From Candidatus Thorarchaeota archaeon (lineage in GTDB: Archaea > Asgardarchaeota > Thorarchaeia > Thorarchaeales > Thorarchaeaceae), in contig CP070761.1 in assembly GCA_020348985.1 (NCBI GenBank), positions 1,651,227 through 1,708,364 on the forward strand: 57,138 bases of DNA. The letters are read 5' to 3'. Both the position numbers and the translations under genes were made by a program. Position 1 is the first letter of the stretch. Each line of letters starts with the position of its first letter. The notes under the pieces were generated by a model, which had not been told where the DNA came from, did not search any database, and saw nothing but the letters and a program-made list of their open reading frames with translations. Below, one piece after another: positions 1-25,811 of this stretch.

Positions 1-106
1 TTGGGGTGAGGTGTCGTCCACTGGGCGATGACGAATCTTGGGTTCGCAAGTAGGGAGAAGTCGTAACAAGGTATCCGTAGCGGAAGCTGCGGATGGATCA
101 CCTCCT
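1..106 (+). rRNA. rrs: 16S rRNA gene, 3' end (partial, archaeal type)
   Basis: Universal AAGTCGTAACAAGGTA, helix 45 TCCGTAGC-GGAA-GCTGCGGA and anti-SD terminus GGATCACCTCCT ending at 106. Confidence 0.97.
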
Positions 107-210
107 TTGATTGCCCATCCTTAGGATGGGTAGAAGTGGAGGCTGGCGGTGGTAGAACTACGGGTAATTACCCCACTGGCATTGCTGAGCACCCTTTTCA
201 TTTTTACAGT
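107..210 (+). repeat. 16S 3' trailer element, native copy (hairpins plus T-rich terminator-like tract)
   Basis: CCCATCC-TTA-GGATGGG hairpin (114-130), palindrome GGGTAATTACCC (162-173), then GAGCACCCTTTTCATTTTT. Recurs six times downstream. Confidence 0.85.
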
Positions 211-238
211 GTTTGATTTCTTGACGGATTGAATTTAT

Positions 239-1003
239 TCATCGTTTTCTCAATAGTACTATCAGTACAACAAGACTGATTGCAACACCACCTACAATCA
301 GGTACAATTCAATACCAAAATTTGGAATTCCATCATTTCCAGTGTTTGAGGGAGGAGTATCTCTTGTGATTATTCCCAAATCCGATGTCACATGGTCACT
401 AAAAATCAAGGACATATTTGTAAATGAGTTTGCTAAAACTCCATCTTGCTTGTGATAGAGCTTTTCTCCATAACCAACATAATTACTGGATACGTAGGAC
501 TGTTGATATCCCCAAAAAGATGAATTCTCAAACACTTCAAAATCGTATGAATTGTCAACTCCTTCATAGGATGCTTCCATCAGTGTCGTTAGCAAGCTCC
601 AATTTCCAAGAGGTACTGCGAAATACTCATTCATTATCGCAATCCAAAATTGGTAAGAAGCAAGACTCTCATTATCATGAGGTATTGATGTCCCATTTAA
701 CCAGGAACCTGATATCCATGGAAAAGGTAATGTTTCACCTTCATCATGTCCAGGAATTCGATGAAACAAATCCACCTCTTGAGGGATATCGGGTAAGTGA
801 TAGAATTTAACGACTGTGATCTCACTCATTGTTTCTGAATGAATCTCACTTGCATTAGTCAATATGTTGGCAATTTCGACATTATAGTTGATTTCATAAT
901 CCTCTGCTATTCCCCAATTGAGTATAGAAGCATCATCTGCGTTTACAAAAGGTGCCCCAATGAATAGAATAGAAATTACTGCTATTACCAAGTACCTTCT
1001 CAT
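239..1003 (-). CDS. Hypothetical exported, C-terminally membrane-anchored protein
   Basis: 254-aa ORF with an N-terminal signal-like segment, several N-x-S/T sequons and a C-terminal TM helix ending in LLRKR. Visibly AT-rich. Confidence 0.8.
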   Translation of the reverse strand: MRRYLVIAVISILFIGAPFVNADDASILNWGIAEDYEINYNVEIANILTNASEIHSETMSEITVVKFYHLPDIPQEVDLFHRIPGHDEGETLPFPWISGSWLNGTSIPHDNESLASYQFWIAIMNEYFAVPLGNWSLLTTLMEASYEGVDNSYDFEVFENSSFWGYQQSYVSSNYVGYGEKLYHKQDGVLANSFTNMSLIFSDHVTSDLGIITRDTPPSNTGNDGIPNFGIELYLIVGGVAISLVVLIVLLRKR

Positions 1004-1158
1004 AACTCAGTACACCCTCTTATTCCATAAAATGGCTAGTGGCATATCAAATATCCTACGAAAATGTGTCTACTCTACACCTGAATCACAAGGCATCAAT
1101 GAGGATTGGAGTCGTACATGGCGTGCGGGGTCAGGCAAGAAGGGACTTGCCCTCCAAA

Positions 1159-1183
1159 GCATTGCTGAGCACCCTTTCATTTT
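1159..1183 (+). repeat. 16S trailer repeat copy 1 (3' part only)
   Basis: GCATTGCTGAGCACCCTTTCATTTT vs native 179-204 GCATTGCTGAGCACCCTTTTCATTTT (one T deleted). Confidence 0.85.
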
Positions 1184-1247
1184 GAATTGCTATTGCGTCT
1201 TGAAGCACAATAATTGGCTGGCACTCGGTCGCTCCGTTGGGTAATGA

Positions 1248-1600: not shown

Positions 1601-2212
1601 ATGAAGACACATACAACAGATGACTTTACTTATTCCGTCACCGAAATCAAGCCCTGCCTAGCTGATGAAAAGCGAATCCGAGTAATCGCTAGTTTCGAGG
1701 CTGATCTTACTCCAATTCTGGAGATTCTGTTCCTCCATCTACGAAATGCCAACTACTCCCGAAGTCTTGCCTGTGTCACATCAAAGCGTGCTGGGTGCTC
1801 AACGACAGTCTTCGGGAGTGGAAAGATAGCCATGACCTTCCTCAAAGATGAACAGGAAGCACTGGATCAACTATCAGCCCTCGCAAGGACTTTCACGAAA
1901 GCCTTTGACTATCTAGAGGCAAATGGAAGTCCCGACCCAAATGTCGTGCATGCTAAGGAGAACATCAACGCACTCGAGATTCACAAACTTCTTCCTCGAA
2001 CCGACTGTGGTGATTGCGGAGAATCGGGTTGCTTTGCATTTGCCATTGTACTCATGAATGGGGACAGGGATATTGCTAATTGTGAGCCCCTCGAGCGGAT
2101 CGAGTATTCAGACAAGCGGAACGCTCTAGTCAGGGTCATTCAGCCAATTGATCTGGATGCAACAAAAGATGGTTGCTCTGACCTTGCAGAATTTCTAGGA
2201 CTGAAGATTTGA
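1601..2212 (+). CDS. (Fe-S)-binding protein, COG4871-like, with C-terminal putative Fe-S domain
   Basis: LLPRTDCGDCGESGCFAFA...C motif typical of the RnfB/CdhE-type FeS domain; N-terminal PCLAD motif. Confidence 0.8.
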   Translation: MKTHTTDDFTYSVTEIKPCLADEKRIRVIASFEADLTPILEILFLHLRNANYSRSLACVTSKRAGCSTTVFGSGKIAMTFLKDEQEALDQLSALARTFTKAFDYLEANGSPDPNVVHAKENINALEIHKLLPRTDCGDCGESGCFAFAIVLMNGDRDIANCEPLERIEYSDKRNALVRVIQPIDLDATKDGCSDLAEFLGLKI

Positions 2213-2294
2213 GGATGACTCGCCAACAATGGCGAAGCCAAGCAGTTTCAGTTCAGCCGAAGCCCACCACTATGAACCCCTCAAAACAGTTAAA

Positions 2295-2312
2295 TATCGA
2301 GATTATTCGATA
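2295..2312. promoter_or_regulatory. Putative ArsR operator upstream of acr3
   Basis: Perfect TATCGA-gattat-TCGATA overlapping a TATA-like TTAAATA; related sites at 4228, 5459 and 9550. Confidence 0.7.
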
Positions 2313-2351
2313 AATCGAAAAACCAAGAGACGCGTTATGAGATGAAACATA

Positions 2352-3461
2352 TTGGGTGAATCTGAAACCGGTACCAAATCTGTGGTGGGCAGTCCAATAA
2401 CGGGCCTTTCTACACTCGACAAATTCCTGCCGCTTTGGATCATCTTGGCTATGGCCCTGGGTGTCTTGCTCGGCTATCTGGTACCCGGACTTGCCGCAGC
2501 ACTGGACTACTGGAGCATTGGGACCGTATCCATTCCCATTGCAATTGGTCTCTTGTGGATGATGTATCCTGTTTTGGCAAAGGTCAAGTATGAAGAACTG
2601 GGAAAGCTGAAAGGAGAGAAGAAGATGTTTGGGGTCTCCTTGACCCTGAACTGGTTGGTTGGCCCATTCCTGATGTTTGCCCTAGCCTGGATATTCCTAG
2701 CTGATCTCCCGGACTACCGAACTGGCATAATATTGGTAGGCCTTGCTCGGTGTATAGCGATGGTTCTAATCTGGAACATGATGGCAGGAGGATGTAGTGA
2801 GTCGTGCGCAGTTCTCGTTGCACTGAACTCAGTCTTCCAGATATTCATGTACAGCCCTGAAGCGTGGTTCTTTGTCACATATCTCTCTTCTATTGTATCG
2901 CCCGGAGCTGGCTCCGTTGTAGAGGTCTCGATTCTTGAGATTGCTTGGAGTGTCATCATCTTCCTTGGGATTCCACTAGCAGCAGGAATCGTCACAAGGT
3001 TCAGCCTGATGAAACGTAGGTCAAAAGAGTGGTACGACAAAGAGTTTGCACCAAAGCTGGGACCTTACGCTTTGATTGGGCTTCTATTCACGATAGTGGT
3101 CATGTTCTCTCTGAAGGGGGACACGATTGTTGCCCTTCCATTGGACGTACTCAGAATCGCTCTTCCACTTCTTTCATACTTTGTCATCATGTTCCTAGTA
3201 TCGTTTGGAGTCTCATACGCGATGAAGTTTACGTACGACAAGAATGCGACCATATCATTCACTGCAGCAAGCAACAATTTCGAACTGGCCATAGCTGTTG
3301 CAATTGGAGTGTTCGGTATTGGCTCGGGACAGGCACTTGCGGCTGTTGTTGGTCCTCTCATTGAGGTACCAGTCTTGGTCGGGTTAGTTTACGTTTCCAT
3401 GTGGCTGGGCCGACGATTCTACGGATGGACGCAAGAGGACTCAATCCCTGCTGAAACATAA
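2352..3461 (+). CDS. acr3: ACR3-family arsenite efflux transporter
   Basis: Signature motifs MMYPVL, GLARCIAMV, ASNNFELAIAVA and GPLIEVPVL; multi-pass hydrophobic protein. Confidence 0.95.
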   Translation: MGESETGTKSVVGSPITGLSTLDKFLPLWIILAMALGVLLGYLVPGLAAALDYWSIGTVSIPIAIGLLWMMYPVLAKVKYEELGKLKGEKKMFGVSLTLNWLVGPFLMFALAWIFLADLPDYRTGIILVGLARCIAMVLIWNMMAGGCSESCAVLVALNSVFQIFMYSPEAWFFVTYLSSIVSPGAGSVVEVSILEIAWSVIIFLGIPLAAGIVTRFSLMKRRSKEWYDKEFAPKLGPYALIGLLFTIVVMFSLKGDTIVALPLDVLRIALPLLSYFVIMFLVSFGVSYAMKFTYDKNATISFTAASNNFELAIAVAIGVFGIGSGQALAAVVGPLIEVPVLVGLVYVSMWLGRRFYGWTQEDSIPAET

Positions 3462-3465
3462 GATA

Positions 3466-3845
3466 TTGCTCAACTGCTCTCGTGAGGTATGTTCTGGAGG
3501 CAATGTCTCTCGTGCTGCAACGCTTGAGGTCCTCCACCGTCTGAGACCAACTGCATCAGTGACCATTTGTCTTCCCCTTTTCCTAGCTGGAGATGAAGCA
3601 GAGAGGGAGTTTGCAAGGAATTCCTTCAAACCACAATTGATGGATGCGACAAGCTCTGTGCCGCTAAGGGCACGAAGAAGTATAGCAGTAAACCAGCCAT
3701 GGAGATGAATCAAGAGGAATATCTGGGCGAATCTTGCATAGATGTTGACGAAAGATGGAGAATAGAATGATGTAGTGAGCTAGTTGACAAAATCGCTCAA
3801 GACATTGCATCGTATATCGATCGTTTAAGAGATGAATTTAGGTGA
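3466..3845 (+). pseudogene. DGC-domain (putative zinc-binding) protein pseudogene, paralogue of 11491-11898
   Basis: Collinear with 11491-11898 but has a 1-nt deletion near 3620 and CGA->TGA at 3768-3770. Confidence 0.85.
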
Positions 3846-3849
3846 TAAC

Positions 3850-4128
3850 ATGTCTGACAAGGTTCTGGTGATGGTATTCGTGGCTATGGGGGTATGCGGC
3901 TGTAGCCAGTCTGGATTCCTAGGGCGCATCTATGAAGCCATCAGGAAATATAGAAATATTGCTGATTATAGGGAATACCAAGCCGACAGTGACATAGCAA
4001 AGAAATACGGAATTGGTTACTGTGGTGTAGTGGTTAGCAGCAAATCAGTGGGAAGCAATCCCACCACAGCTAAGATTGAAGAAGCCATTCTCAAGGAGAT
4101 TAATCAACAAGGCACAGAAGCAATATGA
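3850..4128 (+). CDS. Small thioredoxin-fold-like protein with CxC motif, paralogue of 11889-12182
   Basis: GVCGCSQSGFL motif; SD-like AGGTGA before the ATG; closely similar paralogue in the second ars cassette. Confidence 0.75.
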   Translation: MSDKVLVMVFVAMGVCGCSQSGFLGRIYEAIRKYRNIADYREYQADSDIAKKYGIGYCGVVVSSKSVGSNPTTAKIEEAILKEINQQGTEAI

Positions 4129-4227
4129 AGGATGAGCAGCATCCGCATCTTTTCTCACCTGACCTTGGACATAGCTTATACCTAAGTGCAAGTCTACAGA
4201 TGAATGAGGCGCAAGGAAAGATTGATT

Positions 4228-4245
4228 TATCGAGATATACAGTGA
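4228..4245. promoter_or_regulatory. Putative ArsR operator upstream of arsR (weak right arm)
   Basis: ATTGATTTATCGAGAT at 4221-4236 is identical to 5452-5467. Confidence 0.5.
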
Positions 4246-4356
4246 AGCACAGCAATCCACTGAAGACAGTGAAGTGGTTTGAATGTTTCAGAGAACAGAT
4301 CTCACGATGTCAAGTTCTGACGAAGCATGCTTGATTTGCAAAATTGGGGTGTCGTT

Positions 4357-4653
4357 TTGAAAAGAGACAAACAAGCTGAATGGAGAGTCCACTTCCACAA
4401 GGCCCTAAGTAATCCTGAAAGACTGAGAATAGTGGATTTCCTTGCAGACGGCGAGCAATGTCAATGCGATGTGTTTCCGCAAATTGGACTGTCTCAGTCT
4501 ACAGTCTCTTCATACCTCACTCAACTTGTGAGAGCCGGTATCCTGAATGTAAGGCGCGATGGCACCAGGAAGCTCTATAGTCTCAGTGACCCACGCATAC
4601 GCAGAATGATACAAGACATACGTGGTCTTGCTGCCGAAATGACAGCTACATGA
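4357..4653 (+). CDS. arsR: ArsR/SmtB-family transcriptional repressor
   Basis: KALSNPERLRI...EQCQCDV (equivalent to the ELCVCDL As(III) box)...SQSTVSSYL...G. TTG start after GGGGTG; upstream ATG at 4327 is an alternative. Confidence 0.9.
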   Translation: MKRDKQAEWRVHFHKALSNPERLRIVDFLADGEQCQCDVFPQIGLSQSTVSSYLTQLVRAGILNVRRDGTRKLYSLSDPRIRRMIQDIRGLAAEMTAT

Positions 4654-4723
4654 GGATTACTCCTCAGTGCGCTCAGTGGTTTTGCGAATGCAATGTGAGA
4701 CACAATTCAATCTTTTATTGTGA

Positions 4724-5347
4724 GTGTTAACCTTGATCATCAAAGACCTGGATCAGACTGGTATCACAACTGAGTTAGAACACGATGCGAATGGTAAGTT
4801 GAGGATTAGAAGTGTCATAAAACTTCAGCAAGGATCTTGTATTGGGATTGAGTCACTATGGAAACCAGATTACAGGAATTCGAATCCTGAGATGCTTGAG
4901 TCCAACATCCAAATTGGTGGCTTGGCCCTACCTTTAGCAAAGGCGCCAGCACTTTTGGCGCATAGAAATCTGATACAAGATGTAAAAGAGTGTCCCCATG
5001 AGGTCCAGACTTTGCCACATGGAGCAGAACACCCAAAAACCAGCTTGAACACAGTTCATTTGGCGACGCGTCATGACGGTGCTGAGGTTTTCCTAGACCC
5101 TTTATCTGCTGCTTTCTGGGCGCGTGACTGCAGGAGGGTGAAAGAAGTCAGTGTGGAATCAGCCGCTTTCGCTCTCAAGACAGACAGGAACAGTGTAGTT
5201 GAGAGCGCCACATGCGCCTCAGAAGAAACTTGGGAAATAATCAATGTAGTTCTTTCCATTTTGTCATTGGCTAAAGAACTTGATTCGCACGTTAGTCAAA
5301 TGGGCATATCCCTCAAGGATTTACGCACCAAGAGGCCAGAAACCTAG
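4724..5347 (+). CDS. Hypothetical protein
   Basis: 207-aa open frame; no motif recognised; could be a remnant. Confidence 0.4.
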   Translation: MLTLIIKDLDQTGITTELEHDANGKLRIRSVIKLQQGSCIGIESLWKPDYRNSNPEMLESNIQIGGLALPLAKAPALLAHRNLIQDVKECPHEVQTLPHGAEHPKTSLNTVHLATRHDGAEVFLDPLSAAFWARDCRRVKEVSVESAAFALKTDRNSVVESATCASEETWEIINVVLSILSLAKELDSHVSQMGISLKDLRTKRPET

Positions 5348-5458
5348 TCTGGTGGTGCGATTTGCGTCGAATCCCATCAGCCACACTCTGTCAAGGCCAT
5401 ATCTTTGAGTAACCATAACCTAGCGAATATCACCTCACGACTCTCCGAAAAATTGATT

Positions 5459-5476
5459 TATCGAGATTATACGGTA
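5459..5476. promoter_or_regulatory. Putative ArsR operator upstream of the DUF5714-lplA operon
   Basis: TATCGA-gattat-ACGGTA; shares TATCGAGATTAT with the acr3 site. Confidence 0.6.
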
Positions 5477-5608
5477 AATGAGTGTGATGCATACCAGGAA
5501 TCTGAATCTTAGCACTCTGTGAAGGCAGTTGTTCTCTACACCATTGTCTTACAGAATGGTATCCATTATCACCGAGACCAGTGAGGCGCTTTGTGGAGGA
5601 AGGAATCA

Positions 5609-6331
5609 ATGAATGAAATTGGATTTCCTTGTGTGGTGTGTGGGAAGAGACTTCTTGAGACTCGAGGCGATGTCATCTCCTGCAGCTACTGCGGGCACGA
5701 CGAGAAGAGCGATTTCGTATGCAAAGACCGTCATTTTGTCTGTGAGACCTGTCGAACGTGCACTCCTACAGAGATAATCCTGAAAACATCCGTGGCTACA
5801 CCTACGGATGACTCTCTGTTTTTGGCGAATCTCCTTATGCATCATCCGGCAATACCAATGTCCGGCCCAGAACACCACCTTCTAGTCCCTGCGATTTTGC
5901 TGACAGCCACACATAATGCTGGGCATAGAATGGCTCTTGAATCACGGTTACGCCAAGCATTGAAACGTGCTAATAGATTCGGATTAGGGAGCTGTGCGAA
6001 TCTGGGTGCCTGCGGCGCGGCAATGGGCGTACCGATAGCAATCAGTCTGTTAATTGGCGCCGAATACACAAAACCAGAAGAGCGTAAGACCGTGCTTCGC
6101 GCTTCTGCCGTTGCCATGACCGCGGTTGCCAATCTGCCTGCACTCAGATGCTGCAAAGCATCAGTCTATTCATCTCTGAGTGTAGGAACTGATTTCATCA
6201 GGCGGGAGTTGGAATTAGGAGTCCCGCCGGTCCCTCATCCGACTTGTCATTTCGAGGGCAACAGCCTCGAATGTGTACGACAGGAGTGCCCATACTTCGA
6301 ACAGAGCAAATTGGACGGCGATTTGACGTGA
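5609..6331 (+). CDS. DUF5714-like cysteine-rich protein with N-terminal zinc-ribbon motifs
   Basis: MSGPEHHLLVP, GSCANLGACGAA and RCCK motifs; several N-terminal CxxC pairs. Confidence 0.8.
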   Translation: MNEIGFPCVVCGKRLLETRGDVISCSYCGHDEKSDFVCKDRHFVCETCRTCTPTEIILKTSVATPTDDSLFLANLLMHHPAIPMSGPEHHLLVPAILLTATHNAGHRMALESRLRQALKRANRFGLGSCANLGACGAAMGVPIAISLLIGAEYTKPEERKTVLRASAVAMTAVANLPALRCCKASVYSSLSVGTDFIRRELELGVPPVPHPTCHFEGNSLECVRQECPYFEQSKLDGDLT

Positions 6332-7410
6332 AACAGGCGTCAGTAGTCCGATTCTATACTGGCCCAAATCCGGGCGGGATCTGGGACGCCGCTCTGGATG
6401 AAGCGATTCTTCGTGTTACGTGTGAGGACCACGGGCCTCTCACGGTTCGAGTTTGGTTGAATAAGAGTCCTGTTTTGGTTCTTCCAAGAAGCCCAATGCA
6501 AAAAGAAGGAGCTTTTATCCAAGAATGCAGCACAAGAGGAATTCATGTCACCCGCGGACTCAGTGGTAGAAGATGTCTCCTACATGGTCCTAGTGTCCTG
6601 AGCTTTTCCCTTGTTGACGAATCGAATGCTTTAGCATCTGGAGATCTAGAAAGAGAGATTTGCCAATTGCTCTCTCCTGTAATACGGGGAATCCAGTCGG
6701 AGATTCCAACAAGTGAGATTGCGTTTGACCAAGGCCATGTTATCGTAGGAGAATCGATTGTAGGTGCATTCAACACATCCTACTACTTCGACTATCTTAT
6801 GCTTCAAGGTGTTGTTCATGTTCATAGCAATCAACACTTCACGACCCTCAAGATTACGAAAGAGGGAACACGTCTTACGTGTCTTGATCAAATCCAGTCT
6901 CATGTTTCAAGCCAACATATCATGGATGCAATTAAGAAGTCAATTGCACAGAATCATGGATTGCAGATGACCAACATGCCTGCCAGTGTCAGAGTAACTG
7001 AACTCATGACTGAACTTCATCAGTGGAAATACACGAATAATGACTGGGTGTACCATCAATTAGAACCACTTGCATTGGGTCGAATTCTATTGGAATCTTA
7101 TCTTGCTTATCCACCTACTAATCGCTGCCGCGAAATAATAGCCATAGTTGATGAAATATCGAAGAAATATGCGGACAAAGTGGAATGTCGAAAATGGTTA
7201 CGAGGTCGGGGTTTGATGTCGTGGCTCAAGGGTGTGCCGCCGGGCCTTCGTCCAAGCGGGGGAGTTGTCCAAGCTTCCAAGAAGAATATCGTGCCAGCTG
7301 TAGTAGTGCAGGGGAATATCACACATGAGAGGAAAGTGCCGGTTTATGATGACCTCTGTGAAATCGTCGAGACGGCCTACAACGTGACATTTGGTGGGAC
7401 ATCTGAGTAA
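6328..7410 (+). CDS. Lipoate-protein ligase-like domain (catalytic motifs degenerate) fused to a C-terminal thioredoxin-like domain
   Basis: ALDEAIL...VRVW N-terminus as in LplA. RRxSGGG has become RGLSGRR and K[IV]SG has become SIVG. The tail has PPTNRC...PAVVVQG...KVP. GTG start overlaps the upstream stop. Confidence 0.75.
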   Translation: MKQASVVRFYTGPNPGGIWDAALDEAILRVTCEDHGPLTVRVWLNKSPVLVLPRSPMQKEGAFIQECSTRGIHVTRGLSGRRCLLHGPSVLSFSLVDESNALASGDLEREICQLLSPVIRGIQSEIPTSEIAFDQGHVIVGESIVGAFNTSYYFDYLMLQGVVHVHSNQHFTTLKITKEGTRLTCLDQIQSHVSSQHIMDAIKKSIAQNHGLQMTNMPASVRVTELMTELHQWKYTNNDWVYHQLEPLALGRILLESYLAYPPTNRCREIIAIVDEISKKYADKVECRKWLRGRGLMSWLKGVPPGLRPSGGVVQASKKNIVPAVVVQGNITHERKVPVYDDLCEIVETAYNVTFGGTSE

Positions 7411-8237
7411 TGGATACGACGTGGCGTGTTGTAATCTCAGAAGAAACTGACCCAACGTGGAATCTTGCAGTTGATGAAGCTATTCTTAGAAGTGTTATAG
7501 ACGACAACTCGCCAAACACTGTACGTATCTGGCGAAGCAGCGAGTCGGTCATAATAGGTCGCAGTCAAGATACAAGAGCGGAAGTAGACATTAGATTGTG
7601 TAATGAACTCAGCATACCAATTCTTCGACGTTGCAGTGGTGGAGGAACGGTATACATGGACCTTGGTAACTACAACTACTCTGTCATCGCAAATAGTAGC
7701 GTTTTCACTCAAGTGAAGGCAGTCCACCACATTGCACGTTTCATGTGTATGGCAGTAGTTAACCTGTTGTCGCGGCTGGATTGTGATTCAAGATTTGTTC
7801 CCCCTTCCAGCGTCTTCATTGAAGATTCGAAGGTTTCTGGATCTGCTCAGTACTTTCTCTACGAAGGCATTCTCCATCATGGCACGCTGCTGGTCAATGC
7901 AGACCTAGAACTGATGCAAGAGGTCCTGGCTCCAAATCCCACGCTTGCCAAAAGACTACGGTCTGTCCCAAGCGTATCAACCCCTGTCGTAAACCTGTCA
8001 TCGCTTTTCGGAAAGCAGTATCAATTCGAAGAGATAGCAAATCTACTGGTTGATGCAATCATGGGCACTTTGGGAGCACACAATTGGGATTTGGGACCGA
8101 CCAGCACGAGTGAGAACGAACTTACACAGCTGCTCTATGATACCAAATACTCGGACCCCTGCTGGCTTTTGGGAGTACAACGGCAAAAGCAGATTACTAT
8201 TGATTCGACAGCCCTCCCTACTAATAGAATCCAATGA
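7410..8237 (+). CDS. lplA: Lipoate-protein ligase A / octanoyltransferase family protein (catalytic domain only)
   Basis: NLAVDEAIL, RRCSGGGTVYMD, KVSGSAQ (catalytic Lys) and HHGTLL; no C-terminal LplB domain. Confidence 0.9.
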   Translation: MDTTWRVVISEETDPTWNLAVDEAILRSVIDDNSPNTVRIWRSSESVIIGRSQDTRAEVDIRLCNELSIPILRRCSGGGTVYMDLGNYNYSVIANSSVFTQVKAVHHIARFMCMAVVNLLSRLDCDSRFVPPSSVFIEDSKVSGSAQYFLYEGILHHGTLLVNADLELMQEVLAPNPTLAKRLRSVPSVSTPVVNLSSLFGKQYQFEEIANLLVDAIMGTLGAHNWDLGPTSTSENELTQLLYDTKYSDPCWLLGVQRQKQITIDSTALPTNRIQ

Positions 8238-8317: not shown

Positions 8318-8412
8318 CCATCCTTAGGATGGGTAGAAGTGGAGGCTGGCGGTGGTAGGACTACGGGTAATTACCCAACTGTCATTGTTAAGCACGCTTT
8401 CTCTTTTGCAGT
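8318..8412 (+). repeat. 16S trailer repeat copy 2
   Basis: 8318-8358 is identical to 115-155 (41 bp); 6 mismatches over 83 bp against 115-197. Confidence 0.95.
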
Positions 8413-8510
8413 TATCATCTTTCAATAGACGATTCTATTCTGATTTCAAGCAAGTTCTCGAATTGTGCCTAATCCTTTGAGGGAACTATGTTGATATTCA
8501 GATGCAGTTT

Positions 8511-9101
8511 TCAATGATCATTTAATCCCTTTCCATTGAGAATTCTCTGAACATGTTTTTCAACCCTTGACTCCCGAGTTTTGGATTGCTTGGGTGCAGA
8601 AAAATATAGAATGTATGCTCTTTGCCGTCCCGGCGTCAATGCATCAAAAGCAGTTTTCAAGGCAGGGCTTTCATCTAATTTCCTTTGAAACTCTTCGGGA
8701 ATCATGAATTCTGTAGTCTTTTTGAAATCCACCTTCAAACCGGCTTTTTCTACTTCAACGGCTTCATGAATATAGACTTTCAAGATTGTTTCCATCTCAG
8801 CTATTTCCTGAACATTGGTGAACCGAATCTGGCGCACCGCCTGCGTATTTTCCCCGGGTTTGGATAGTATACCATTGGCATCTTCTATCAAGGCACCTTT
8901 GAAGAAACTGAGCACGCAGTATTCTTTGAATCCCCCTATTATTGCCACGTTATTTCCCTGAAACGTGTAACAAGGTTGACGCCACTTCAATTCTTCCGTC
9001 AGCCCACAGTCAAGTATGATCCTTCTCAATTCGCCCAATTCCTTCTGCCACTTTTGGGCTCTTGCCAAAAATTCATCAACCTTAGGATTCATTCTATTCA
9101 T
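8511..9101 (-). CDS. YdeI/OmpD-associated family protein (DUF1801 + OmdA-like domain)
   Basis: EELKWRQPCYT, LSFFKGAL and AFDALTPGRQRAYILYFSAPKQSKTR motifs; bacterial-like sequence. Confidence 0.9.
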   Translation of the reverse strand: MNRMNPKVDEFLARAQKWQKELGELRRIILDCGLTEELKWRQPCYTFQGNNVAIIGGFKEYCVLSFFKGALIEDANGILSKPGENTQAVRQIRFTNVQEIAEMETILKVYIHEAVEVEKAGLKVDFKKTTEFMIPEEFQRKLDESPALKTAFDALTPGRQRAYILYFSAPKQSKTRESRVEKHVQRILNGKGLNDH

Positions 9102-9159
9102 TTGTTGGCGCTCCGAAACGAAGTGAGCCTATATCTGCCTACAATTCCTATCTATTCTT

Positions 9160-9390
9160 TAACAAGGTATCCGTAGCGGAAGTTACGAATAAAAGAAGAT
9201 GAGAGTCAATCTAGCCTTCCATCAATTACCTCCTGTGATTTCTCTCTCATAGAAGTAGAAGCAGATTGATCTCTCTTCAGAGAGAGAGGTTCGGGTCTTC
9301 GACGGGGCAGGCGGTGCATTCGAAGAAGTTGTCCATCGCCACATTCAGACTTGCCACACTCATGCTGCCGAGCACCCTTTCATTTTGCAT
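9160..9390 (+). repeat. 16S trailer repeat copy 3, including a degenerate duplicate of the 16S 3' end
   Basis: 9160-9182 TAACAAGGTATCCGTAGCGGAAG is identical to 64-86. Then ATTACCTCCTGTGATT (~9225, cf. ATCACCTCCTTTGATT), TAGAAGTAGAAGC and GAGCACCCTTTTCATTTT (~9370), with insertions between them. Confidence 0.85.
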
Positions 9391-9549
9391 ATGTTGTCCT
9401 GTGACTAGGCAGCATCCTCATTCTCTCCTCAAGGTCATCTTGAATCGAGATTCTGCCGTTCTGGTTGTCGAATGACTCCAAAGGCTCGACATCAAGATCC
9501 GGTAAACGACTTTCAAGAAACACGGCGCGCCTCCGCAGCAACACTGATA

Positions 9550-9567
9550 TATCGAAATAAACCGATA
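9550..9567. promoter_or_regulatory. Putative ArsR operator upstream of the hdrA-like/gcvH-like operon
   Basis: TATCGA-aataaa-CCGATA followed by AATCGAA, the same downstream flank as the acr3 site. Confidence 0.7.
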
Positions 9568-9595
9568 AATCGAACATTGAAACGAGCTGATTGCG

Positions 9596-9970
9596 ATGAG
9601 TTCCGAAAGACCCGCGTTCATCATGTGTGTGTGTACGGGCAAGTGCCCGGGTTTTGGGAAGATGGATATTTGGGACTTCATCAATACAGTTCGAATGGCC
9701 CTTCCGGTTCAATATGGGATTATCCATCCCCAATTATGTGAGGAGGATGGTGATCGGTACCTGGAAGATGTTTTGAAACCCAATCAGAAGTTCTTCATTG
9801 GAGGTTGCGCTCCAACAATGCAGTACAAGCTCTTCCGGGATGCGTTCCAGAAAAGGAACCTGGACGTGAAAGGCGATCTTGTACCGATTGATGTGCGCGA
9901 CATGACTACCGAAGAGGCCATTGGTCGAGTGTCTGAGGAGCTGAAGAAACATGGATATCACCTCGAGTAA
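9596..9970 (+). CDS. Stand-alone protein resembling the HdrA N-terminal domain
   Basis: IMCVCTG...LCEEDG...GGCAP...LFR mirrors the HdrA pattern VYVCHCG...MCSDPG...AACSP...TFR. Confidence 0.7.
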   Translation: MSSERPAFIMCVCTGKCPGFGKMDIWDFINTVRMALPVQYGIIHPQLCEEDGDRYLEDVLKPNQKFFIGGCAPTMQYKLFRDAFQKRNLDVKGDLVPIDVRDMTTEEAIGRVSEELKKHGYHLE

Positions 9971-10259
9971 TCCGAGTCCAGATTTGACCTTCATGGGCGT
10001 TGATCGGGAGAAGATTCCTTGGTGGCCAACCATTGACCTGCAAGATTGTGATGGGTGCAGTGGTGACTACGACTGTCTGAAGTTCTGCCCGCACGGCGTC
10101 TACAAGCCCCTTGAGAATTCCTCGAGAATTGCCGTTGAGAATCCCTACAACTGTGTGGTCTTTTGCCAAGCGTGTAAGAAGATGTGCCCGAAGAATGCTA
10201 TCTCCTTTCCCTCAAAACGAGCCATTCTCGATTTGATCAAGAATGAGCGTGCAAAATAG
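9951..10259 (+). CDS. 2x[4Fe-4S] ferredoxin-family protein
   Basis: WWPTID, CDGC...CLKFCP and CVVFCQACKKMCP. Confidence 0.9.
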   Translation: MDITSSNPSPDLTFMGVDREKIPWWPTIDLQDCDGCSGDYDCLKFCPHGVYKPLENSSRIAVENPYNCVVFCQACKKMCPKNAISFPSKRAILDLIKNERAK

Positions 10260-10270
10260 GGTGGTGTTGG

Positions 10271-11107
10271 GTGGAACGAAAATACATCCTTCCATGCGCA
10301 GGATATGACCGTCCCGGCGGTCAGGTTTCAAGAGCCGCCGCAGAAAGACTTGCCATCATTCGTGACGATGTGATTATCGGAAGCATGGGGGCACTCTTCA
10401 AGGAACGTCCTGGTGAGATGCGTGACTATAGGACCTCCGATGTATTCTGTCTTGATGGTTGCGGAGAGAACTGCGCCTCTGAACTTGCACGTGCTAGAGG
10501 TAGGAATGACAGCACCAGCATTGTCATCCATGAGGTTGTGGGCTCAATTGAGAACTTCGAAGGAAAAGTAGACCGCTTGATGCAGTCTTTGACCCAAGAA
10601 ATTGACAAGACAAGGCCTAGGGTTTCGTCCAAGATCACTTCGGAACCTCCACATGAGATTGAGCTCATTGAGGAGAAGTTCGACAAGTTTACACTCAAGG
10701 TGGCCAAGGGTTTGAAATACTCTGACAATGACTTCTGGGTCAGCACTGAAGGAGAACAGGTTCGTGTAGGAGTCTCAGACTTCCTTCAACAGATGATGTC
10801 CGATGTGTACTTCGTGGAACTCGCTGAGATTGGCACACATGTAGACATGTTTGACGACGCAGGTCTGATGGAATCGACAAAGATTCTCGTCGAGATTATA
10901 GTCCCTGTGTCGGGGTCTATAGTAGAAGCCAATATCTCCCTTGAGGACAGCCCTGAGTTCATCAATGAGAGTCCATATGATAAAGGCTGGCTCTATGTCC
11001 TTAAGCCGGATGACATCAATGAACTGGAACTACTCCGAGATGCTCACGACTACATGACTTATGCCTTGGCGAAAGCAAAGGAGGAGATTGGAAAAAGGGT
11101 GGAGTAG
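10271..11107 (+). CDS. gcvH: DGC domain fused to a glycine-cleavage-H-like lipoyl carrier domain
   Basis: N-terminal ILPCAG...LDGCGENCA. C-terminal LKYSDNDFWV...VGVSDF...MESTK (lipoyl Lys retained)...PVSG...INESPYDKGWL. Confidence 0.85.
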   Translation: MERKYILPCAGYDRPGGQVSRAAAERLAIIRDDVIIGSMGALFKERPGEMRDYRTSDVFCLDGCGENCASELARARGRNDSTSIVIHEVVGSIENFEGKVDRLMQSLTQEIDKTRPRVSSKITSEPPHEIELIEEKFDKFTLKVAKGLKYSDNDFWVSTEGEQVRVGVSDFLQQMMSDVYFVELAEIGTHVDMFDDAGLMESTKILVEIIVPVSGSIVEANISLEDSPEFINESPYDKGWLYVLKPDDINELELLRDAHDYMTYALAKAKEEIGKRVE

Positions 11108-11110
11108 AGA

Positions 11111-11494
11111 ATGAAGAAAGTAGTAATTCCATGCAGTGGAATAGGAAAAGCATTTGGTGCTGTTGCACGTGAAGCAACGTATCTTTTGACCGACTCTGAT
11201 CATTCTAATGAATATGTGACAATATGCCTTCCATTGTTGATGACCGACGATGTAGAGTCCAAACAGAGGGTTACGGAATCCAATGTCTATACAGTTGATG
11301 GATGTCCAAAGCGCTGCGCATCAATCCTTGTTAGACATGCAGGGGGAAAACCAGTCATGGAGATAATGACGCCGAAGGTTCTTGCCGCTAACAAGGAACA
11401 CAAGCCCGAGACGGTTCTGAACATTGGCGATGGTGGTCAGCTGCTGGCAACAGACATAGTGAATCTAATTCTTAATCATGGAGATGACAAGTGA
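11111..11494 (+). CDS. DGC-domain putative zinc-binding protein
   Basis: VIPCSG...TICLP...VDGCPKRCA. Confidence 0.85.
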   Translation: MKKVVIPCSGIGKAFGAVAREATYLLTDSDHSNEYVTICLPLLMTDDVESKQRVTESNVYTVDGCPKRCASILVRHAGGKPVMEIMTPKVLAANKEHKPETVLNIGDGGQLLATDIVNLILNHGDDK

Positions 11495-11898
11495 TGGCCT
11501 TCAAACCCAAGGTGGGTCTTATCTCTTGTAGTGGTGAGGCATGTTCCGGAGGGAATATCTCTCGTGCCGCGACACTTGAGGTCCTACACTATCTGAGACC
11601 AACTGAAACGGTGACTATTTGTCTTCCTCTTTTCCTGGCTGGAGATGAAGGAGAACGGGAGTTTGCGAGAAGCTTCCCTACAATCACAATTGATGGGTGC
11701 AGCAAACTCTGTGCGGCTAGGGGTACGGAAAGGTATAGCAGCACACCAGCCATGAAGATGAATCTAGAAGAATATCTGGGAGAATCCTGCACTAGCACTG
11801 ATGAGAGATGGAGACTAGAACGAAGTAGCGAGCTTGTCGATAGAATTGCTCAAGACATCGCATCTCATGTTAATCGTCTAAGAGAAGAATGGGGGTGA
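11491..11898 (+). CDS. DGC-domain putative zinc-binding protein
   Basis: LISCSGEAC...TICLP...IDGCSKLCA. Confidence 0.85.
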   Translation: MMAFKPKVGLISCSGEACSGGNISRAATLEVLHYLRPTETVTICLPLFLAGDEGEREFARSFPTITIDGCSKLCAARGTERYSSTPAMKMNLEEYLGESCTSTDERWRLERSSELVDRIAQDIASHVNRLREEWG

Positions 11899-12182
11899 AT
11901 CAAATATCCGATAAGATTCCAGTAATGGTGTTCCTTGCAGTGGGAGTTTGCAGTTGCAGCCAGACTGGATTCCTAGGGCGCGTTTATGAAGCCATCAGGA
12001 AATACAGAGATGTTGTTGACTATAGGGAATACTCCGCTGGAAGTGATATCGCAAAGAGATATGGGATTAGCTATCGTGGGGTCGTGGTTGGCAGCAAATC
12101 AGTAGGTAGCAATCCCACCACAGCAAGGATTGAAGAGGCCATTCTCAAGGAAATCGAAAAGCAAGACTTAGATTCAATGTGA
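11889..12182 (+). CDS. Small thioredoxin-fold-like protein with CxC motif
   Basis: GVCSCSQTGFL; paralogue of 3850-4128; overlaps the upstream stop. Confidence 0.75.
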   Translation: MGVNQISDKIPVMVFLAVGVCSCSQTGFLGRVYEAIRKYRDVVDYREYSAGSDIAKRYGISYRGVVVGSKSVGSNPTTARIEEAILKEIEKQDLDSM

Positions 12183-12316
12183 TGAATCTACGTGATCTAT
12201 TATACCGTGAGACACACTCCGTCTACTACTATGGAAGTGAATTCCCTTCCAACCTAACTGAATCTGCCAAGGCCCGATACTTCAACAACCACATTCTGAC
12301 GAATGTCAGTCTGCAT

Positions 12317-12362
12317 TACGGGTAATTACCCACCCGTCACTTTTGAGCACCTGTTCATTCTT
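12317..12362 (+). repeat. 16S trailer repeat copy 4 (3' half)
   Basis: TACGGGTAATTACCCACCCGTCACTTTTGAGCACCTGTTCATTCTT aligns without gaps to 159-204. Confidence 0.85.
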
Positions 12363-12512
12363 CCGTCTGCTATTTGCGACTCCGGACTATTCTCATCGAT
12401 AAACAGAATTAAACTCACACACATTGATCTTGGTCAATCGCGAAGGACCAAGATTGCTTCAAACCCTCTTGAGAGCTTGATATCAAGTACATAAATGGCG
12501 AAATCTCTGCAG

Positions 12513-13940: not shown

Positions 13941-14210
13941 TTTGATGAGTTATGAATCAAAAGAACACCAGAGAATAATGCACGATAAGCGACTCCTTCG
14001 TCATGAAGCTGTCCGTTTTGTGCCATAGGAACTCCGTTCTTGAAGAAGCCATATTTTCAACTAAAAAGCAACTCTTCGATTGCTGCCTATTTCAACAGAA
14101 TCCTTTCAGATGTGAGACTGGGGCAATTTCGGTCAGTTTCGCCTCGTCGTCGAGAGTGAAGACATCTATTATGGTTTCTGAAGCGTTTGCAGTCTCGAAC
14201 ATCACAAAGT

Positions 14211-14303
14211 CCCATCTTTGGGATGAGTAGAAGTGGAGGCTTACGGTGGTATAACTACGGGTAATTACCCAACTGTCACTGTAGAGCACCCTTTCATTCT
14301 ACA
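14211..14303 (+). repeat. 16S trailer repeat copy 5
   Basis: Gapless match to 114-197 with about 11 mismatches; GGGTAATTACCC intact. Confidence 0.95.
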
Positions 14304-14366
14304 TCAGTCAAGTTTGAGCTTTCGTTGAACTGCATGCTTATTACTAATCTCTCGCTCGGTTTTGTC

Positions 14367-16502: not shown

Positions 16503-17171
16503 TTACTTTTGGAGCAGTTTACTCAATCGCATCTTCTCCTCAGGAGCCAACAATCGGTAACCATCCAGTTTCTCAAGCGGAATATAAAACGTCGGGGCGA
16601 TACACTTTGGGTGATGCCATCTATAGGATAGGTGTTCTTCATAGAAATATGGCTCCCCTATTCTGAATCGTCCTTCTTCTATTGGTCTTCCACAAGATCG
16701 GCATTTAGATCGTCCTGATTTTGCAGTCTCAACCTTCCATACCGGCTCGGGTTCTTTCTTACTTCGCTTCAGTTTTTCTAGGAAGTCGATAGGCTTCTGA
16801 CCCACCATCTCGATTGTGAATCTAAGATTGAACGAATCATATTCACTAGGAGAGAATAGAATCACAATGTCACCATCCTTTAACGAGTCTTTGATAGTCA
16901 TGTCTGGCGGCCATCGTTTGGTCTGTTTCATGTATTCAAGCGCTTGCTCTGCTAGTATCATACTGGCTTCCTTCTTTGAAATATCCCTTACCCCAGTTTT
17001 TTCGGCAATCCCATAATCTGTTTCAATGTACTTTGCACCCTCTTCTGTAACACCTCTAGATTTTATCAATACCACAGACCCTACCAGTACTGATTTTTGC
17101 AGGCGCCTTAGTCTGAATGTTTTAGTATTTACCCAGTATGCCCAATCCACTTCATAATCCACTTCGGACAT
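16503..17171 (-). CDS. Protein with C-terminal PARP-type zinc finger (paralogue 1)
   Basis: VETAKSGRSKCRSC...RFRIG...RWHHPKC equals the zf-PARP C-x2-C...H-x2-C pattern. Confidence 0.85.
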   Translation of the reverse strand: MSEVDYEVDWAYWVNTKTFRLRRLQKSVLVGSVVLIKSRGVTEEGAKYIETDYGIAEKTGVRDISKKEASMILAEQALEYMKQTKRWPPDMTIKDSLKDGDIVILFSPSEYDSFNLRFTIEMVGQKPIDFLEKLKRSKKEPEPVWKVETAKSGRSKCRSCGRPIEEGRFRIGEPYFYEEHLSYRWHHPKCIAPTFYIPLEKLDGYRLLAPEEKMRLSKLLQK

Positions 17172-17330
17172 CCAATATCGACCTGCCCGATTTGCTGCCT
17201 TAGCCCCTGGCGGCTCTCCCATACGATTGGGAGTGTTCGTTTGTGGTGTGGCGAATAACCGATTTCATAACACAAGCTTGTGTCACGCCAAGAACAGCCG
17301 CATCAAGAAAGATGCCTATCGAGTTTAACA

Positions 17331-18492: not shown

Positions 18493-18530
18493 GTTTGCTT
18501 TCAACATGTTAATCGCCCGCATTACACATA

Positions 18531-18583
18531 CTGTAAACGATTGTATACAATATGTCATCAGATTGTTATAAACTTGTCTACAA
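18531..18583. promoter_or_regulatory. Phased TTGTATACAA-like box array over the zf-PARP promoter
   Basis: Boxes at 18531, 18541 (perfect), 18552, 18563 and 18574, spaced 10-11 bp; overlaps a minus-strand TTTATAA. Confidence 0.65.
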
Positions 18584-25753: not shown

Positions 25754-25811
25754 GTAGTAGGACTACGGGTAATAACTCCGCCGCCACTATTAGACAACCT
25801 TTCGTTTTCCA
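25754..25811 (+). repeat. 16S trailer repeat copy 6 (highly decayed)
   Basis: GTAGTAGGACTACGGGTAATAACTCCGCCGCCACTATTAGACAACCTTTCG aligns without gaps from position 149 onward; differences are mostly transitions. Confidence 0.7.

What the first reader, a model, noticed from the sequence alone, without database searches (positions are those of the whole stretch)
9160..9390. A fossil duplicate of the 16S rRNA 3' terminus 9 kb downstream
Seen: 23 bp identical to 16S positions 64-86, followed by a decayed helix-45/anti-SD segment with an insertion and then trailer fragments. Inference: at least one crossover occurred inside the universally conserved 16S 3' end. This is the signature of target duplication and suggests the conserved rRNA sequence lets DNA from other lineages recombine in.
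Basis: partly seen in the sequence, partly recalled or inferred. Interest (0 to 1): 0.72.

Follow-up and report, generated by a model that had tools for sequence, protein, structure and literature searches.

The report
16S-end repeat closing a gene cassette
This stretch is a real second copy of the last part of the 16S rRNA gene plus its downstream flank, and it is one of many such copies that mark the ends of exchangeable gene cassettes lined up behind the 16S gene across a whole family of Thor-type Asgard archaea, an integron-like layout with no integrase found.

Summary
Window 9160-9182 is identical to 64-86 inside the 16S 3' end, and 9160-9393 parallels a complete 16S terminus plus trailer. 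The interpretation needs revising. The "decay with an insertion" is mostly not decay of this genome's own 16S end. The copy is 83% identical to a conserved ~230-nt module: helix 45, a ~32-nt expansion hairpin, the anti-SD, trailer hairpins and a T-rich core. That module ends cassettes in many related genomes, and the same layout is the true 16S 3' end in some relatives.

The copy and its neighbouring YdeI/DUF1801 gene form an orthologous unit in five genomes. It belongs to an array of trailer-derived repeats (REPs). There are six in the window, all downstream of the 16S gene on the same strand, and 59 of 86 family genomes have three or more. The REPs bound cassettes with a median length of 1.5 kb, rich in toxin-antitoxin pairs, whose content differs between congeners. 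One cassette is missing from a contig of another study, with the junction inside the REP core.

No tyrosine, serine or Y1 recombinase tracks the arrays. The best reading is cassette exchange by recombination through the 16S-end/trailer repeats, with the enzyme unknown. I found no published description.

The parts
1..106 (+). 3' end of the resident 16S rRNA gene. The contig starts inside the gene, and the 5' part is lost in a 100-N scaffold gap.
   Evidence: Rfam RF01959, model positions 1372-1478. The window is one whole contig of a scaffolded MAG.
64..86 (+). Proximal copy of the 23-nt repeat (h44/h45 linker and the 5' strand and loop of helix 45).
110..211 (+). REP0: the true 16S trailer. 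It has a first hairpin, a small GGGTAATTACCC hairpin and a conserved core (CATTGCTGAGCACCCTTTTCATTTT).
   Evidence: nhmmer 70 bits. In relatives the equivalent stretch pairs with the 16S leader at dG -91 to -133 kcal/mol.
239..1003 (-). Gene of cassette 1 (254 aa, no Pfam family).
   Evidence: The cassette is absent from a contig of run X3, which joins 178 to 1159.
1098..1186 (+). REP1: a foreign-type left part with the shared core.
   Evidence: Its nearest types are in G010 and G067.
1601..8237 (+). Cassette 2 block: Fe-S protein, ACR3-like SBF transporter, DGC-domain fragment, ArsR, DUF5714 and two LplA-like ligases.
   Evidence: Pfam.
8319..8414 (+). REP2: own-type trailer copy (90% identical over 115-204).
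8511..9101 (-). YdeI/DUF1801-OmdA gene, transcribed away from the 16S-like fragment. It is orthologous in G067, G087, G089 and G016 (74-78% aa identity).
9102..9159 (.). Conserved spacer and probable promoter of the YdeI gene, ending ...TTCTT directly before the 16S-like fragment.
   Evidence: Alignment A3 and the flanks.
9160..9233 (+). 16S-like part of the long-form module. It comprises the 23-nt exact repeat (9160-9182), a helix-45-like hairpin (9169-9190), a degraded ~32-nt expansion hairpin (9191-9224) and the anti-SD-like ATTACCTCC (9225-9233).
   Evidence: It is 83% identical to the consensus of 15 such modules.
9234..9393 (+). Trailer part of the module (REP3): hairpin 9240-9260, hairpin 9269-9289, a GACGGGG..GCGGTGCA segment, and the core at 9363-9390.
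   Evidence: nhmmer 27.6 bits for 9309-9393. It is nearest to the true trailer of G055 (71%), not to REP0.
9596..12182 (+). Genes after the module (small ORFs, GcvH-DGC fusion, two DGC-domain genes, a 97-aa ORF). They lie in the same order as after the YdeI module in G067.
12298..12372 (+). REP4 (partial: small hairpin plus core).
14209..14304 (+). REP5: own-type trailer copy (82%).
25764..25808 (+). Possible degenerate REP6 (69% identity to the 45-nt reference). It falls below the profile thresholds.
   Evidence: family D3 only. Not found by nhmmer.

Best explanation
Window 9160-9393 is the terminal 'long-form' repeat of one gene cassette (the YdeI/DUF1801 unit). It sits in a cassette array anchored on the 3' end of the 16S rRNA gene, a feature of the family Thorarchaeaceae.

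The repeated unit (REP) is the 16S trailer: the 3' strand of the pre-16S processing stem plus a T-rich tail. In long forms it is preceded by the last ~43 nt of the 16S gene, starting at the h44/h45 linker.

Shown: (1) REPs lie only downstream of the 16S gene, on the same strand, at cassette borders. (2) Cassettes differ between close relatives, and one is polymorphic with its junction inside the REP core. (3) This particular copy is an old unit shared by several genera, whose sequence matches the 16S end and trailer of other lineages.

Inferred: cassettes enter and leave by recombination between a REP (or the 16S end) on incoming or excised DNA and the resident 16S end, trailer or another REP. 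This would be a Campbell-type single crossover, which always leaves an intact 16S 3' end and pushes the former copy downstream. The universally conserved 16S tail and the conserved core supply the homology between lineages.

The catalyst is not identified. Host homologous recombination is the simplest candidate, and an unrecognised site-specific enzyme is not excluded. The copies appear to be kept or refreshed by gene conversion or by selection on their hairpins, rather than drifting freely.
For: - Exact 23-mer, with 0 expected by chance.
- Six REPs in the window, all on the + strand and within 14.3 kb after the 16S gene, and none elsewhere in the 3.16-Mb assembly.
- The same architecture (16S, then REP-bounded units) occurs in G002, G005, G067, G087, G089, G013, G095, G055 and G004.
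- REP was found in 77 of 86 family genomes, and 59 have three or more copies.
- Extra 16S-3' fragments starting at window-equivalent positions 64-83 precede REPs in at least 10 genomes.
- The long-form module is conserved: the window copy is 83% identical to the consensus, and 91% of cells pair in four hairpins against 41-53% with slid partners.
- True 16S genes carrying the same expansion hairpin exist (L142, L151, L152).
- The YdeI gene plus module is orthologous in five genomes, with 0-3 changes in the 23-mer against 74-78% aa identity of the gene. The downstream operon is syntenic with G067.
- Cassettes are mobile. Toxin-antitoxin and other units are shared between arrays in a different order. 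G087 and G089 differ by whole cassettes between REPs. G001 has no array. A contig of run X3 lacks cassette 1, with 19 nt shared at the junction.
- REP left parts in the window are of mixed types.
- No integrase is needed to describe the data: PF00589 is absent from G000 and from 56 of 86 genomes, PF00239 is absent from 63 of 86, and neither lies on an array contig. PF01797 was found in 1 of 5 genomes.
Against: - No recombination intermediate (an excised circle) was seen.
- Only assembled contigs, not raw reads, were available, and almost all genomes are MAGs.
- The single polymorphic junction fits a site-specific crossover as well as homologous recombination over only 19-25 nt.
- The same cassette carries host-type REPs in different genomes. 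This needs added concerted evolution, or crossovers at the left edge of the repeat.
- ORF orientation is only weakly biased (146 same, 85 opposite, from crude ORF calls).
- Conservation of hairpins and of the 23-mer over genus-level divergence could reflect an RNA or protein-binding function unrelated to recombination.
- The window copy on its own does not fold better than shuffles (z -1.25).
Confidence: 0.6

Rival explanations
1. A neutral fossil. One crossover or target duplication in this genome's own 16S 3' end left a copy that has since decayed, gaining a random insertion.
For: The copy sits in direct orientation 9.1 kb downstream. The exact 23-mer is followed by diverged sequence. Relative to its own module type the window copy is somewhat degraded: GGATGG has become GAATAA, the expansion stem is weakened and the fold z-score is -1.25.
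Against: The rest of the copy matches other lineages' 16S end and trailer rather than G000's. The 'insertion' is a conserved hairpin present in true 16S genes. The unit is orthologous in five genomes, with its 16S-like part better conserved than the adjacent gene. Uniform decay strong enough to explain the remainder would not leave 23 of 23 bases intact.
Confidence: 0.12
2. A functional RNA or DNA signal rather than a recombination scar. Each REP or long-form module would be kept because it acts as a terminator or insulator against read-through from the strong 16S promoter, as a 3' stabiliser, or as a site used by rRNA-maturation factors (pairing with the 16S leader, Nob1 or KsgA-type recognition). 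Its position at gene borders would follow from that role.
For: The core is T-rich and lies at the foot of the processing stem. Leader and core covary (GCTCA[G/A]CAGTG with CACTG[C/T]TGAGC). Hairpins are kept with compensatory changes between paralogous copies. REPs are host-specific in type. The 23-mer is conserved across genera.
Against: About a third of the ORFs face the other way, so the REP is not at their 3' end. REP-bounded units are the units of gain and loss. The window copy has lost pairing in the expansion stem. No expression data could be obtained.
Confidence: 0.18
3. A canonical integron or CALIN, in which REPs are attC sites handled by an IntI integrase encoded elsewhere or in other cells.
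For: The layout is an array of short cassettes with one repeat each, rich in toxin-antitoxin pairs, GNATs and methyltransferases. In some genomes the core reads GTTGAGC, which fits GTTRRRY. CALINs have been reported in Asgard MAGs, including two Thorarchaeaceae with 2 attCs each (PMC9668308).
Against: There is no PF00589 gene in G000 or on any array contig, and none in high-quality array-bearing genomes (G011, G013, G095, G077, G055). REP is complementary to the 16S leader, not self-complementary in the R''/R' manner. G000's core reads GCTGAGC. About 17 nt beyond the putative R' are also conserved.
Confidence: 0.04
4. An assembly chimera. The 23-mer would have joined a 16S-bearing fragment of another organism to this contig.
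For: The genome is a scaffolded MAG from sediment, and the contig starts inside the 16S gene. Depth over the YdeI gene is 10-25 times that of its flanks, which shows many related sequences in the samples.
Against: A Logan contig spans 9071-14775. The identical junction and gene order occur in four other genomes. The sequence after the 23-mer is not a functional 16S end.
Confidence: 0.02

Closest known systems
Sedentary chromosomal integrons and CALINs, including those reported in Archaea (Ghaly et al. 2022, PMC9668308)
   Same: One-sided array of short cassettes, each closed by a ~100-nt structured repeat. [quoted passage not shown] The content is rich in toxin-antitoxin pairs and small accessory enzymes. 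The cassette next to the anchor is the most variable.
   Different: No IntI was found, and the repeat lacks the attC R''/R' architecture. The repeat is the 16S rRNA trailer (a processing-stem strand), sometimes with the 16S 3' terminus, and the anchor is the rRNA gene itself rather than attI. Many cassettes carry their own promoter, and a third of the ORFs are inverted.
Integrative elements that target the 3' end of tRNA or tmRNA genes, with tandem accretion of their remnants (established knowledge, recalled from memory, for bacteria and Sulfolobales)
   Same: The distal border carries a direct repeat of the RNA gene's 3' part while the gene itself stays intact. Repeated use of one site stacks units downstream.
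   Different: The target is the 16S rRNA gene. The units are 0.3-12 kb gene cassettes without an integrase. The repeat extends about 100-190 nt beyond the gene.
HeimM2 of Heimdallarchaeum (Wu et al. 2022, PMC8813620)
   Same: An Asgard mobile element inserted directly downstream of the single 16S rRNA gene.
   Different: It is a single 8-kb element with a homing-endonuclease-like gene, located between the 16S gene and a tRNA. No array of trailer repeats or 16S-end duplicates was described.
SCC-type cassette chromosomes at the 3' end of rlmH (recalled from memory; seen in passing)
   Same: Tandem composite arrays bounded by direct repeats of one attachment site at the 3' end of a conserved gene.
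   Different: These depend on Ccr serine recombinases. Serine recombinases are absent from G000 and from most array-bearing genomes.
Homologous or homology-facilitated recombination anchored in conserved rRNA or tRNA genes during exchange between species (recalled from memory; not verified in the library)
   Same: A universally conserved RNA-gene sequence acts as the landing pad for foreign DNA.
   Different: Here the anchor is duplicated at every unit border, giving an ordered array rather than allelic replacement.

Membership tests
Integron (IntI / attI / attC) | An intI tyrosine-recombinase gene beside the array, or at least in the genome | tested here: not met
   PF00589 gave 0 hits in G000. 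It hit 30 of 86 family genomes, none on an array contig, and none in G011, G013, G095, G077 or G055.
Integron (IntI / attI / attC) | attC sites: an imperfect self-complementary R''-L''...L'-R' structure with R' = GTTRRRY | tested here: not met
   Tested by inspection only; the IntegronFinder model was not run. The G000 core reads GCTGAGC, and no R'' partner was found. REP pairs with the 16S leader instead. Conservation continues about 17 nt past the putative R'.
Integron (IntI / attI / attC) | An array of short cassettes, one repeat per cassette, with the repeats co-oriented | tested here: met
   There are 85 REP-to-REP intervals with a median of 1.5 kb. All REPs of an array lie on one strand.
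RNA-gene-targeting integrative element (tRNA/tmRNA type) | A direct repeat of the 3' part of the RNA gene at the far border, with the gene left intact | tested here: met
   64-86 equals 9160-9182, and the resident 16S end is intact. The same pattern occurs in relatives.
RNA-gene-targeting integrative element (tRNA/tmRNA type) | An integrase encoded inside the element | tested here: not met
   Pfam scans of all larger ORFs from 239 to 38321 and of 101 array ORFs from relatives found no integrase.
SCC-type cassette chromosome | A large serine recombinase (Ccr) | tested here: not met
   PF00239 is absent from G000 and present in 23 of 86 genomes, none on an array contig.
IS200/IS605-type single-strand transposition | A Y1 (HUH) transposase | tested here: not met
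   PF01797 was found in 1 of 5 high-quality array-bearing genomes. Only 2 of 101 array ORFs are TnpB-like.
Neutral pseudogene of the resident 16S 3' end | Closest relative is the resident gene end and trailer, with no conservation between genomes | tested here: not met
   Beyond the first 23 nt the copy is closest to other lineages' 16S end and trailer. It is orthologous in five genomes with 0-3 changes in the 23-mer.
Archaeal pre-16S processing stem (leader-trailer helix), for the REP prototype | Long complementarity between the 5' leader and the 3' trailer, with covariation | tested here: met
   In six relatives with complete 16S genes the duplex dG is -91 to -133 kcal/mol, and the leader covaries with the core. 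This cannot be tested in G000 itself, because its leader lies in the scaffold gap.

The most novel reading that the evidence does not exclude
Thorarchaeaceae carry a previously undescribed gene-capture platform, an integron analogue. Its attachment site and cassette-end repeats are the 3' terminus and processing-stem strand of the single 16S rRNA gene. It would work without any known integrase, either through host recombination on rRNA-derived homology or through a new kind of recombinase that recognises these hairpins. Accretion at this site may also be what drove the 16S and 23S genes 55-70 kb apart in this lineage.
Probability: 0.3. Interest if true: 0.9.

Novelty: new variant of a known kind. 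Interest (0 to 1): 0.74.

Why it matters
If this reading holds, a whole family of Asgard archaea uses the flank of its only 16S rRNA gene as a landing pad for accessory genes. The most conserved sequence in the genome would supply the homology, giving a ready route for gene flow between genera and a cassette system that needs no integrase. That bears on how Asgard genomes acquire genes, a central theme in eukaryogenesis debates.

It also bears on why rRNA genes are unlinked in Asgard archaea. In two relatives the 16S and 23S genes are co-oriented 55-70 kb apart, with the array on the 16S side.

There are practical consequences too:
- Partial 16S 3' ends scattered downstream, and inserts inside the 1492R primer site, can break assemblies, mislead 16S callers and bias full-length amplicon surveys.
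- The arrays are rich in toxin-antitoxin pairs and other small accessory genes, so they are a concentrated source of such genes.

Tried and rejected
- RNAalifold on the 37-REP alignment gave no consensus structure; the alignment is too ragged. I used hand-defined helices on the better long-form alignment instead.
- Rfam at gathering thresholds found nothing in the window except the 16S end, and ARAGORN found no tRNA.
- No RNA holder is listed among the public runs, so expression could not be examined.
- Only Logan contigs, not raw reads, could be laid. Read-level spanning, starts and ends are therefore unavailable.
- A 'go-back' joint, 9107 to 8516 with 17 nt between (run X3, depth 4), could be a tandem or circular YdeI unit or another organism. 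It is left unexplained.
- Joints 106 to 1160/1163 in run X1 have only 24 nt on one side and were not used.
- Searches for tyrosine, serine and Y1 recombinases and for LAGLIDADG endonucleases found nothing tied to the arrays. The one LAGLIDADG hit near an array lies in an unrelated intron at about position 874 of G011's 16S gene.
- The metagenome scan for the 23-mer not preceded by G returned only 7 contigs, mostly true 16S genes with the small insert.
- Seven literature searches found no description of these arrays. This shows absence from the searchable library only.
- I could not check whether the two Thorarchaeaceae 'CALINs' in PMC9668308 coincide with REP arrays.
- A gene tree to decide between horizontal transfer and vertical descent of the YdeI unit was not attempted, because five sequences are too few.

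Full report
**1. The observation**

The window begins inside a 16S rRNA gene. Rfam places positions 1-106 on model positions 1372-1478 of the archaeal SSU model. The 23-mer at 64-86 recurs exactly at 9160-9182 on the same strand. These are the only two hits with up to three mismatches, against none in 100 shuffles.

The distal copy continues with these features:
- a helix-45-like hairpin at 9169-9190, with three changes, two of which keep pairing;
- about 32 extra bases;
- an anti-SD-like ATTACCTCC at 9225-9233;
- two hairpins;
- the motif TGCCGAGCACCCTTTCATTTTGCAT at 9366-9390, which also ends the true trailer (183-207).

The assembly is a MAG scaffolded from 132 contigs, and the window is one whole contig. 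The junction is nevertheless sound. A 5705-nt Logan contig covers 9071-14775. The same junction and gene order also occur in four independently assembled genomes.

**2. The wider array in the window**

The 16S trailer is repeated. Profile searches find copies (REPs) at 110-211 (the true trailer), 1098-1186, 8319-8414, 9309-9393, 12298-12372 and 14209-14304. All are on the + strand, and there are none elsewhere in the 3.16-Mb assembly. The finding is therefore the third border of an array.

The genes between REPs are ordinary accessory genes: an ACR3-like transporter, ArsR, lipoate ligases, a YdeI/DUF1801 protein, GcvH/DGC-domain proteins and ferredoxins. None is a recombinase.

**3. The array in relatives**

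Record titles of relatives place the family in Thorarchaeota.
- In every relative with an assembled 16S gene that I examined, except G001, the 16S gene is followed by REP-bounded units on the same strand (G002, G005, G067, G087, G089, G013, G095, G055, G004).
- A sequence-only covariance model of REP hits 77 of 86 family genomes. Of these, 59 have three or more copies and the maximum is 19. Several high-quality genomes of other genera have only the trailer.
- REP-to-REP intervals have a median of 1.5 kb.
- Units shared between arrays, in a different order, are mostly toxin-antitoxin pairs: ParE/RelE with an RHH antitoxin in seven arrays, several VapBC pairs, MazE-PIN and UPF0175-PIN. Other ORFs are GNATs, methyltransferases, hydrolases and transporters.

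**4. What REP is**

In six relatives with complete 16S genes, the 5' leader is complementary to the trailer over about 150 nt (dG -91 to -133 kcal/mol). The leader segment GCTCA(G/A)CAGTG covaries with the REP core CACTG(C/T)TGAGC. REP is therefore the 3' strand of the pre-16S processing stem followed by a T-rich tail.

**5. What the 9160-9393 copy is**

A search with the last 77 nt of the 16S gene finds extra partial 16S ends in many family genomes. They begin at the equivalents of window positions 64-83 and lie directly before REPs.

Fifteen such long-form modules from seven other genomes share one layout: helix 45, a ~32-nt expansion hairpin between GGATGG and ATCACCTCC, the anti-SD, and a trailer hairpin.
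- Across the copies, 91% of cells pair in these helices, against 41-53% when the partners are slid. Six pairs show double changes.
- The window copy is 83% identical to their consensus, within the 78-92% range of the others.
- The same expansion hairpin sits in true 16S genes of G004 and of two metagenome contigs.
- The trailer half of the window copy is closest to the true trailer of G055 (71%), not to G000's own trailer.

So the 'insertion' is ancestral to the module type, not decay. Relative to that type the window copy is moderately degraded. For example, GGATGG has become GAATAA, and the isolated fold z-score is -1.25.

**6. Age of the unit**

The adjacent YdeI/DUF1801 gene (8511-9101, minus strand) has orthologues at 74-78% aa identity in G067, G087, G089 and G016. 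Each is followed by a conserved spacer ending ...TTCTT and then TAACAAGG....
- The 23-mer shows 0-3 changes among the five genomes, while the spacer shows about 25%.
- In G067 the genes after the module are the homologues of window 9596-12182, in the same order.
- In G067, G087 and G089 this is the last REP unit of the array.
- In G087 and G089 the module resembles their own non-expanded trailer, which suggests conversion by the resident copy.

The unit is therefore old, and either maintained or refreshed. It is not a recent scar.

**7. Evidence that cassettes move**

- G001, of the same genus, has only the trailer and shows no synteny with the window over 20 kb.
- G087 and G089, which are congeners, share the 16S gene plus REP0 at 97.5% identity. 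They then carry one versus three unrelated cassettes, and then shared blocks.
- A contig from a different study (run X3) joins 178 to 1159. It lacks cassette 1, and 19 nt of REP core are common to both sides.
- REP left parts in the window are of mixed types, whereas within-genome REPs are generally more alike than between-genome REPs (65.6% against 54.0% median identity).

**8. Mechanism**

No tyrosine recombinase is present in G000 or on any array contig, and 56 of 86 genomes have none. Serine recombinases are absent from 63 of 86 genomes, and Y1 transposases from 4 of 5 tested. This excludes membership of the integron, integrase-island, SCC and IS200/605 classes.

The simplest model that fits is Campbell-type recombination between a REP or 16S tail on excised or imported DNA and the resident 16S end, trailer or another REP. 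A crossover inside the 16S tail recreates an intact gene and moves the old tail and trailer to the far end of the insert. A crossover in the core adds or removes a cassette with its own REP. Whether host recombination or an unknown enzyme does this is open.

The sharp left boundary at position 64 occurs in at least two unrelated flank contexts (...TTCTT| and ...ATCTC|). It coincides with the site where many true 16S genes carry a 27-28-nt hairpin insert flanked by TAA repeats. This site may be prone to breakage; that link is speculative.

A rival that I cannot exclude is that REPs are kept for an RNA-level role as terminator, insulator or processing signal.

**9. Comparison with the literature, and verdict**

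The layout works like a sedentary integron or CALIN and like tandem accretion at tRNA genes, but it fails their defining tests. The archaeal integron survey lists only two Thorarchaeaceae MAGs, with two attCs each, and does not mention rRNA. The nearest Asgard precedent is HeimM2, a single element next to the 16S gene of Heimdallarchaeum. Thorarchaeota are reported to have unlinked rRNA genes (PMC8997704). In G067 and G011 the 23S gene lies 55-70 kb downstream of the 16S gene on the same strand, with the array on the 16S side.

I found no description of 16S-anchored cassette arrays, and I rate this a new variant of a known kind.

Noticed in passing
L014:209-238, L138:1418-1444, L139:3822-3848, L140:4364-4390, L142:3761-3788, L143:499-526; also L149-L153 and L155. 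Absent from window 60-70.: Many true Thorarchaeota 16S genes carry a 27-28-nt hairpin insert between GTCGTAA and CAAGG (about E. coli 1498-1500, by my own numbering). It is flanked by a TAA repeat and folds as GUCG-UAA-[stem-loop]-CGAU-UAA, with compensatory changes between lineages. It may be a bulge-helix-bulge-like mini-intron or an expansion. It splits the 1492R primer site, and it lies exactly where the distal 16S fragments begin.
   Followed up: partly
L142:3819-3852 (G004 true 16S); L151 and L152 (metagenome 16S genes): Some true 16S genes have a ~32-nt expansion hairpin between helix 45 (GGATGG) and the anti-SD (ATCACCTCC). This is the same feature seen in the cassette-end modules.
   Followed up: partly
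G067:C205 (23S at 65200-68309, 16S at about 137.7-139.2 kb, both minus strand); G011:C9 (array at 2.3-16 kb, 23S at 71161-74266, plus strand): The 16S and 23S genes are unlinked but co-oriented, 55-70 kb apart, with the cassette array on the 16S side. Homologues of window genes at 50-54 kb lie in these inter-rRNA regions. Insertion behind the 16S gene may have contributed to the unlinking.
   Followed up: partly
L146:15842-16688 (G011:C2, inside the 16S gene): The 16S gene of G011 is interrupted at about position 874 by an 847-nt intron that contains a 267-aa LAGLIDADG-type open frame.
   Followed up: partly
Whole genome G000 and the family: No Phage_integrase (PF00589) domain was found in G000 or in 56 of 86 family genomes, including several that are 97-99% complete. 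A XerA-type recombinase therefore seems to be missing from much of the family.
   Followed up: no
window 8545-9078: Summed contig depth over the YdeI/DUF1801 gene is 10-25 times that of its flanks in four sediment runs from three studies. Many relatives at 90% identity or more must be present in these communities. A 'go-back' joint, 9107 to 8516, was also seen in one run.
   Followed up: no
window 2285-2319, 4216-4236, 5447-5483, 9538-9574: A repeated palindromic motif (TTTATCGAGAT...TCGATAAATCGAA-like) lies in front of several operons of the ArsR/ACR3/DGC gene blocks. It is probably a shared operator for the ArsR-family regulator at 4327-4653.
   Followed up: no
window 3482-4133 and 11534-12187: Two paralogous copies (78-85% nt identity) of a DGC-domain gene plus a ~97-aa ORF lie in different cassettes. 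In G067 only one such block exists.
   Followed up: partly
window 16503-17222 and 17779-18558 (minus strand): Two paralogous proteins have a C-terminal PARP-type zinc finger (PF00645), flanking an Hsp20 gene.
   Followed up: no
L015:5749-10827, L139:4173-6863, L142:9388-13686 and related ORFs: Very large ORFs (up to about 1690 aa) of one homologous group sit directly after the 16S trailer in several genomes, on the opposite strand.
   Followed up: no
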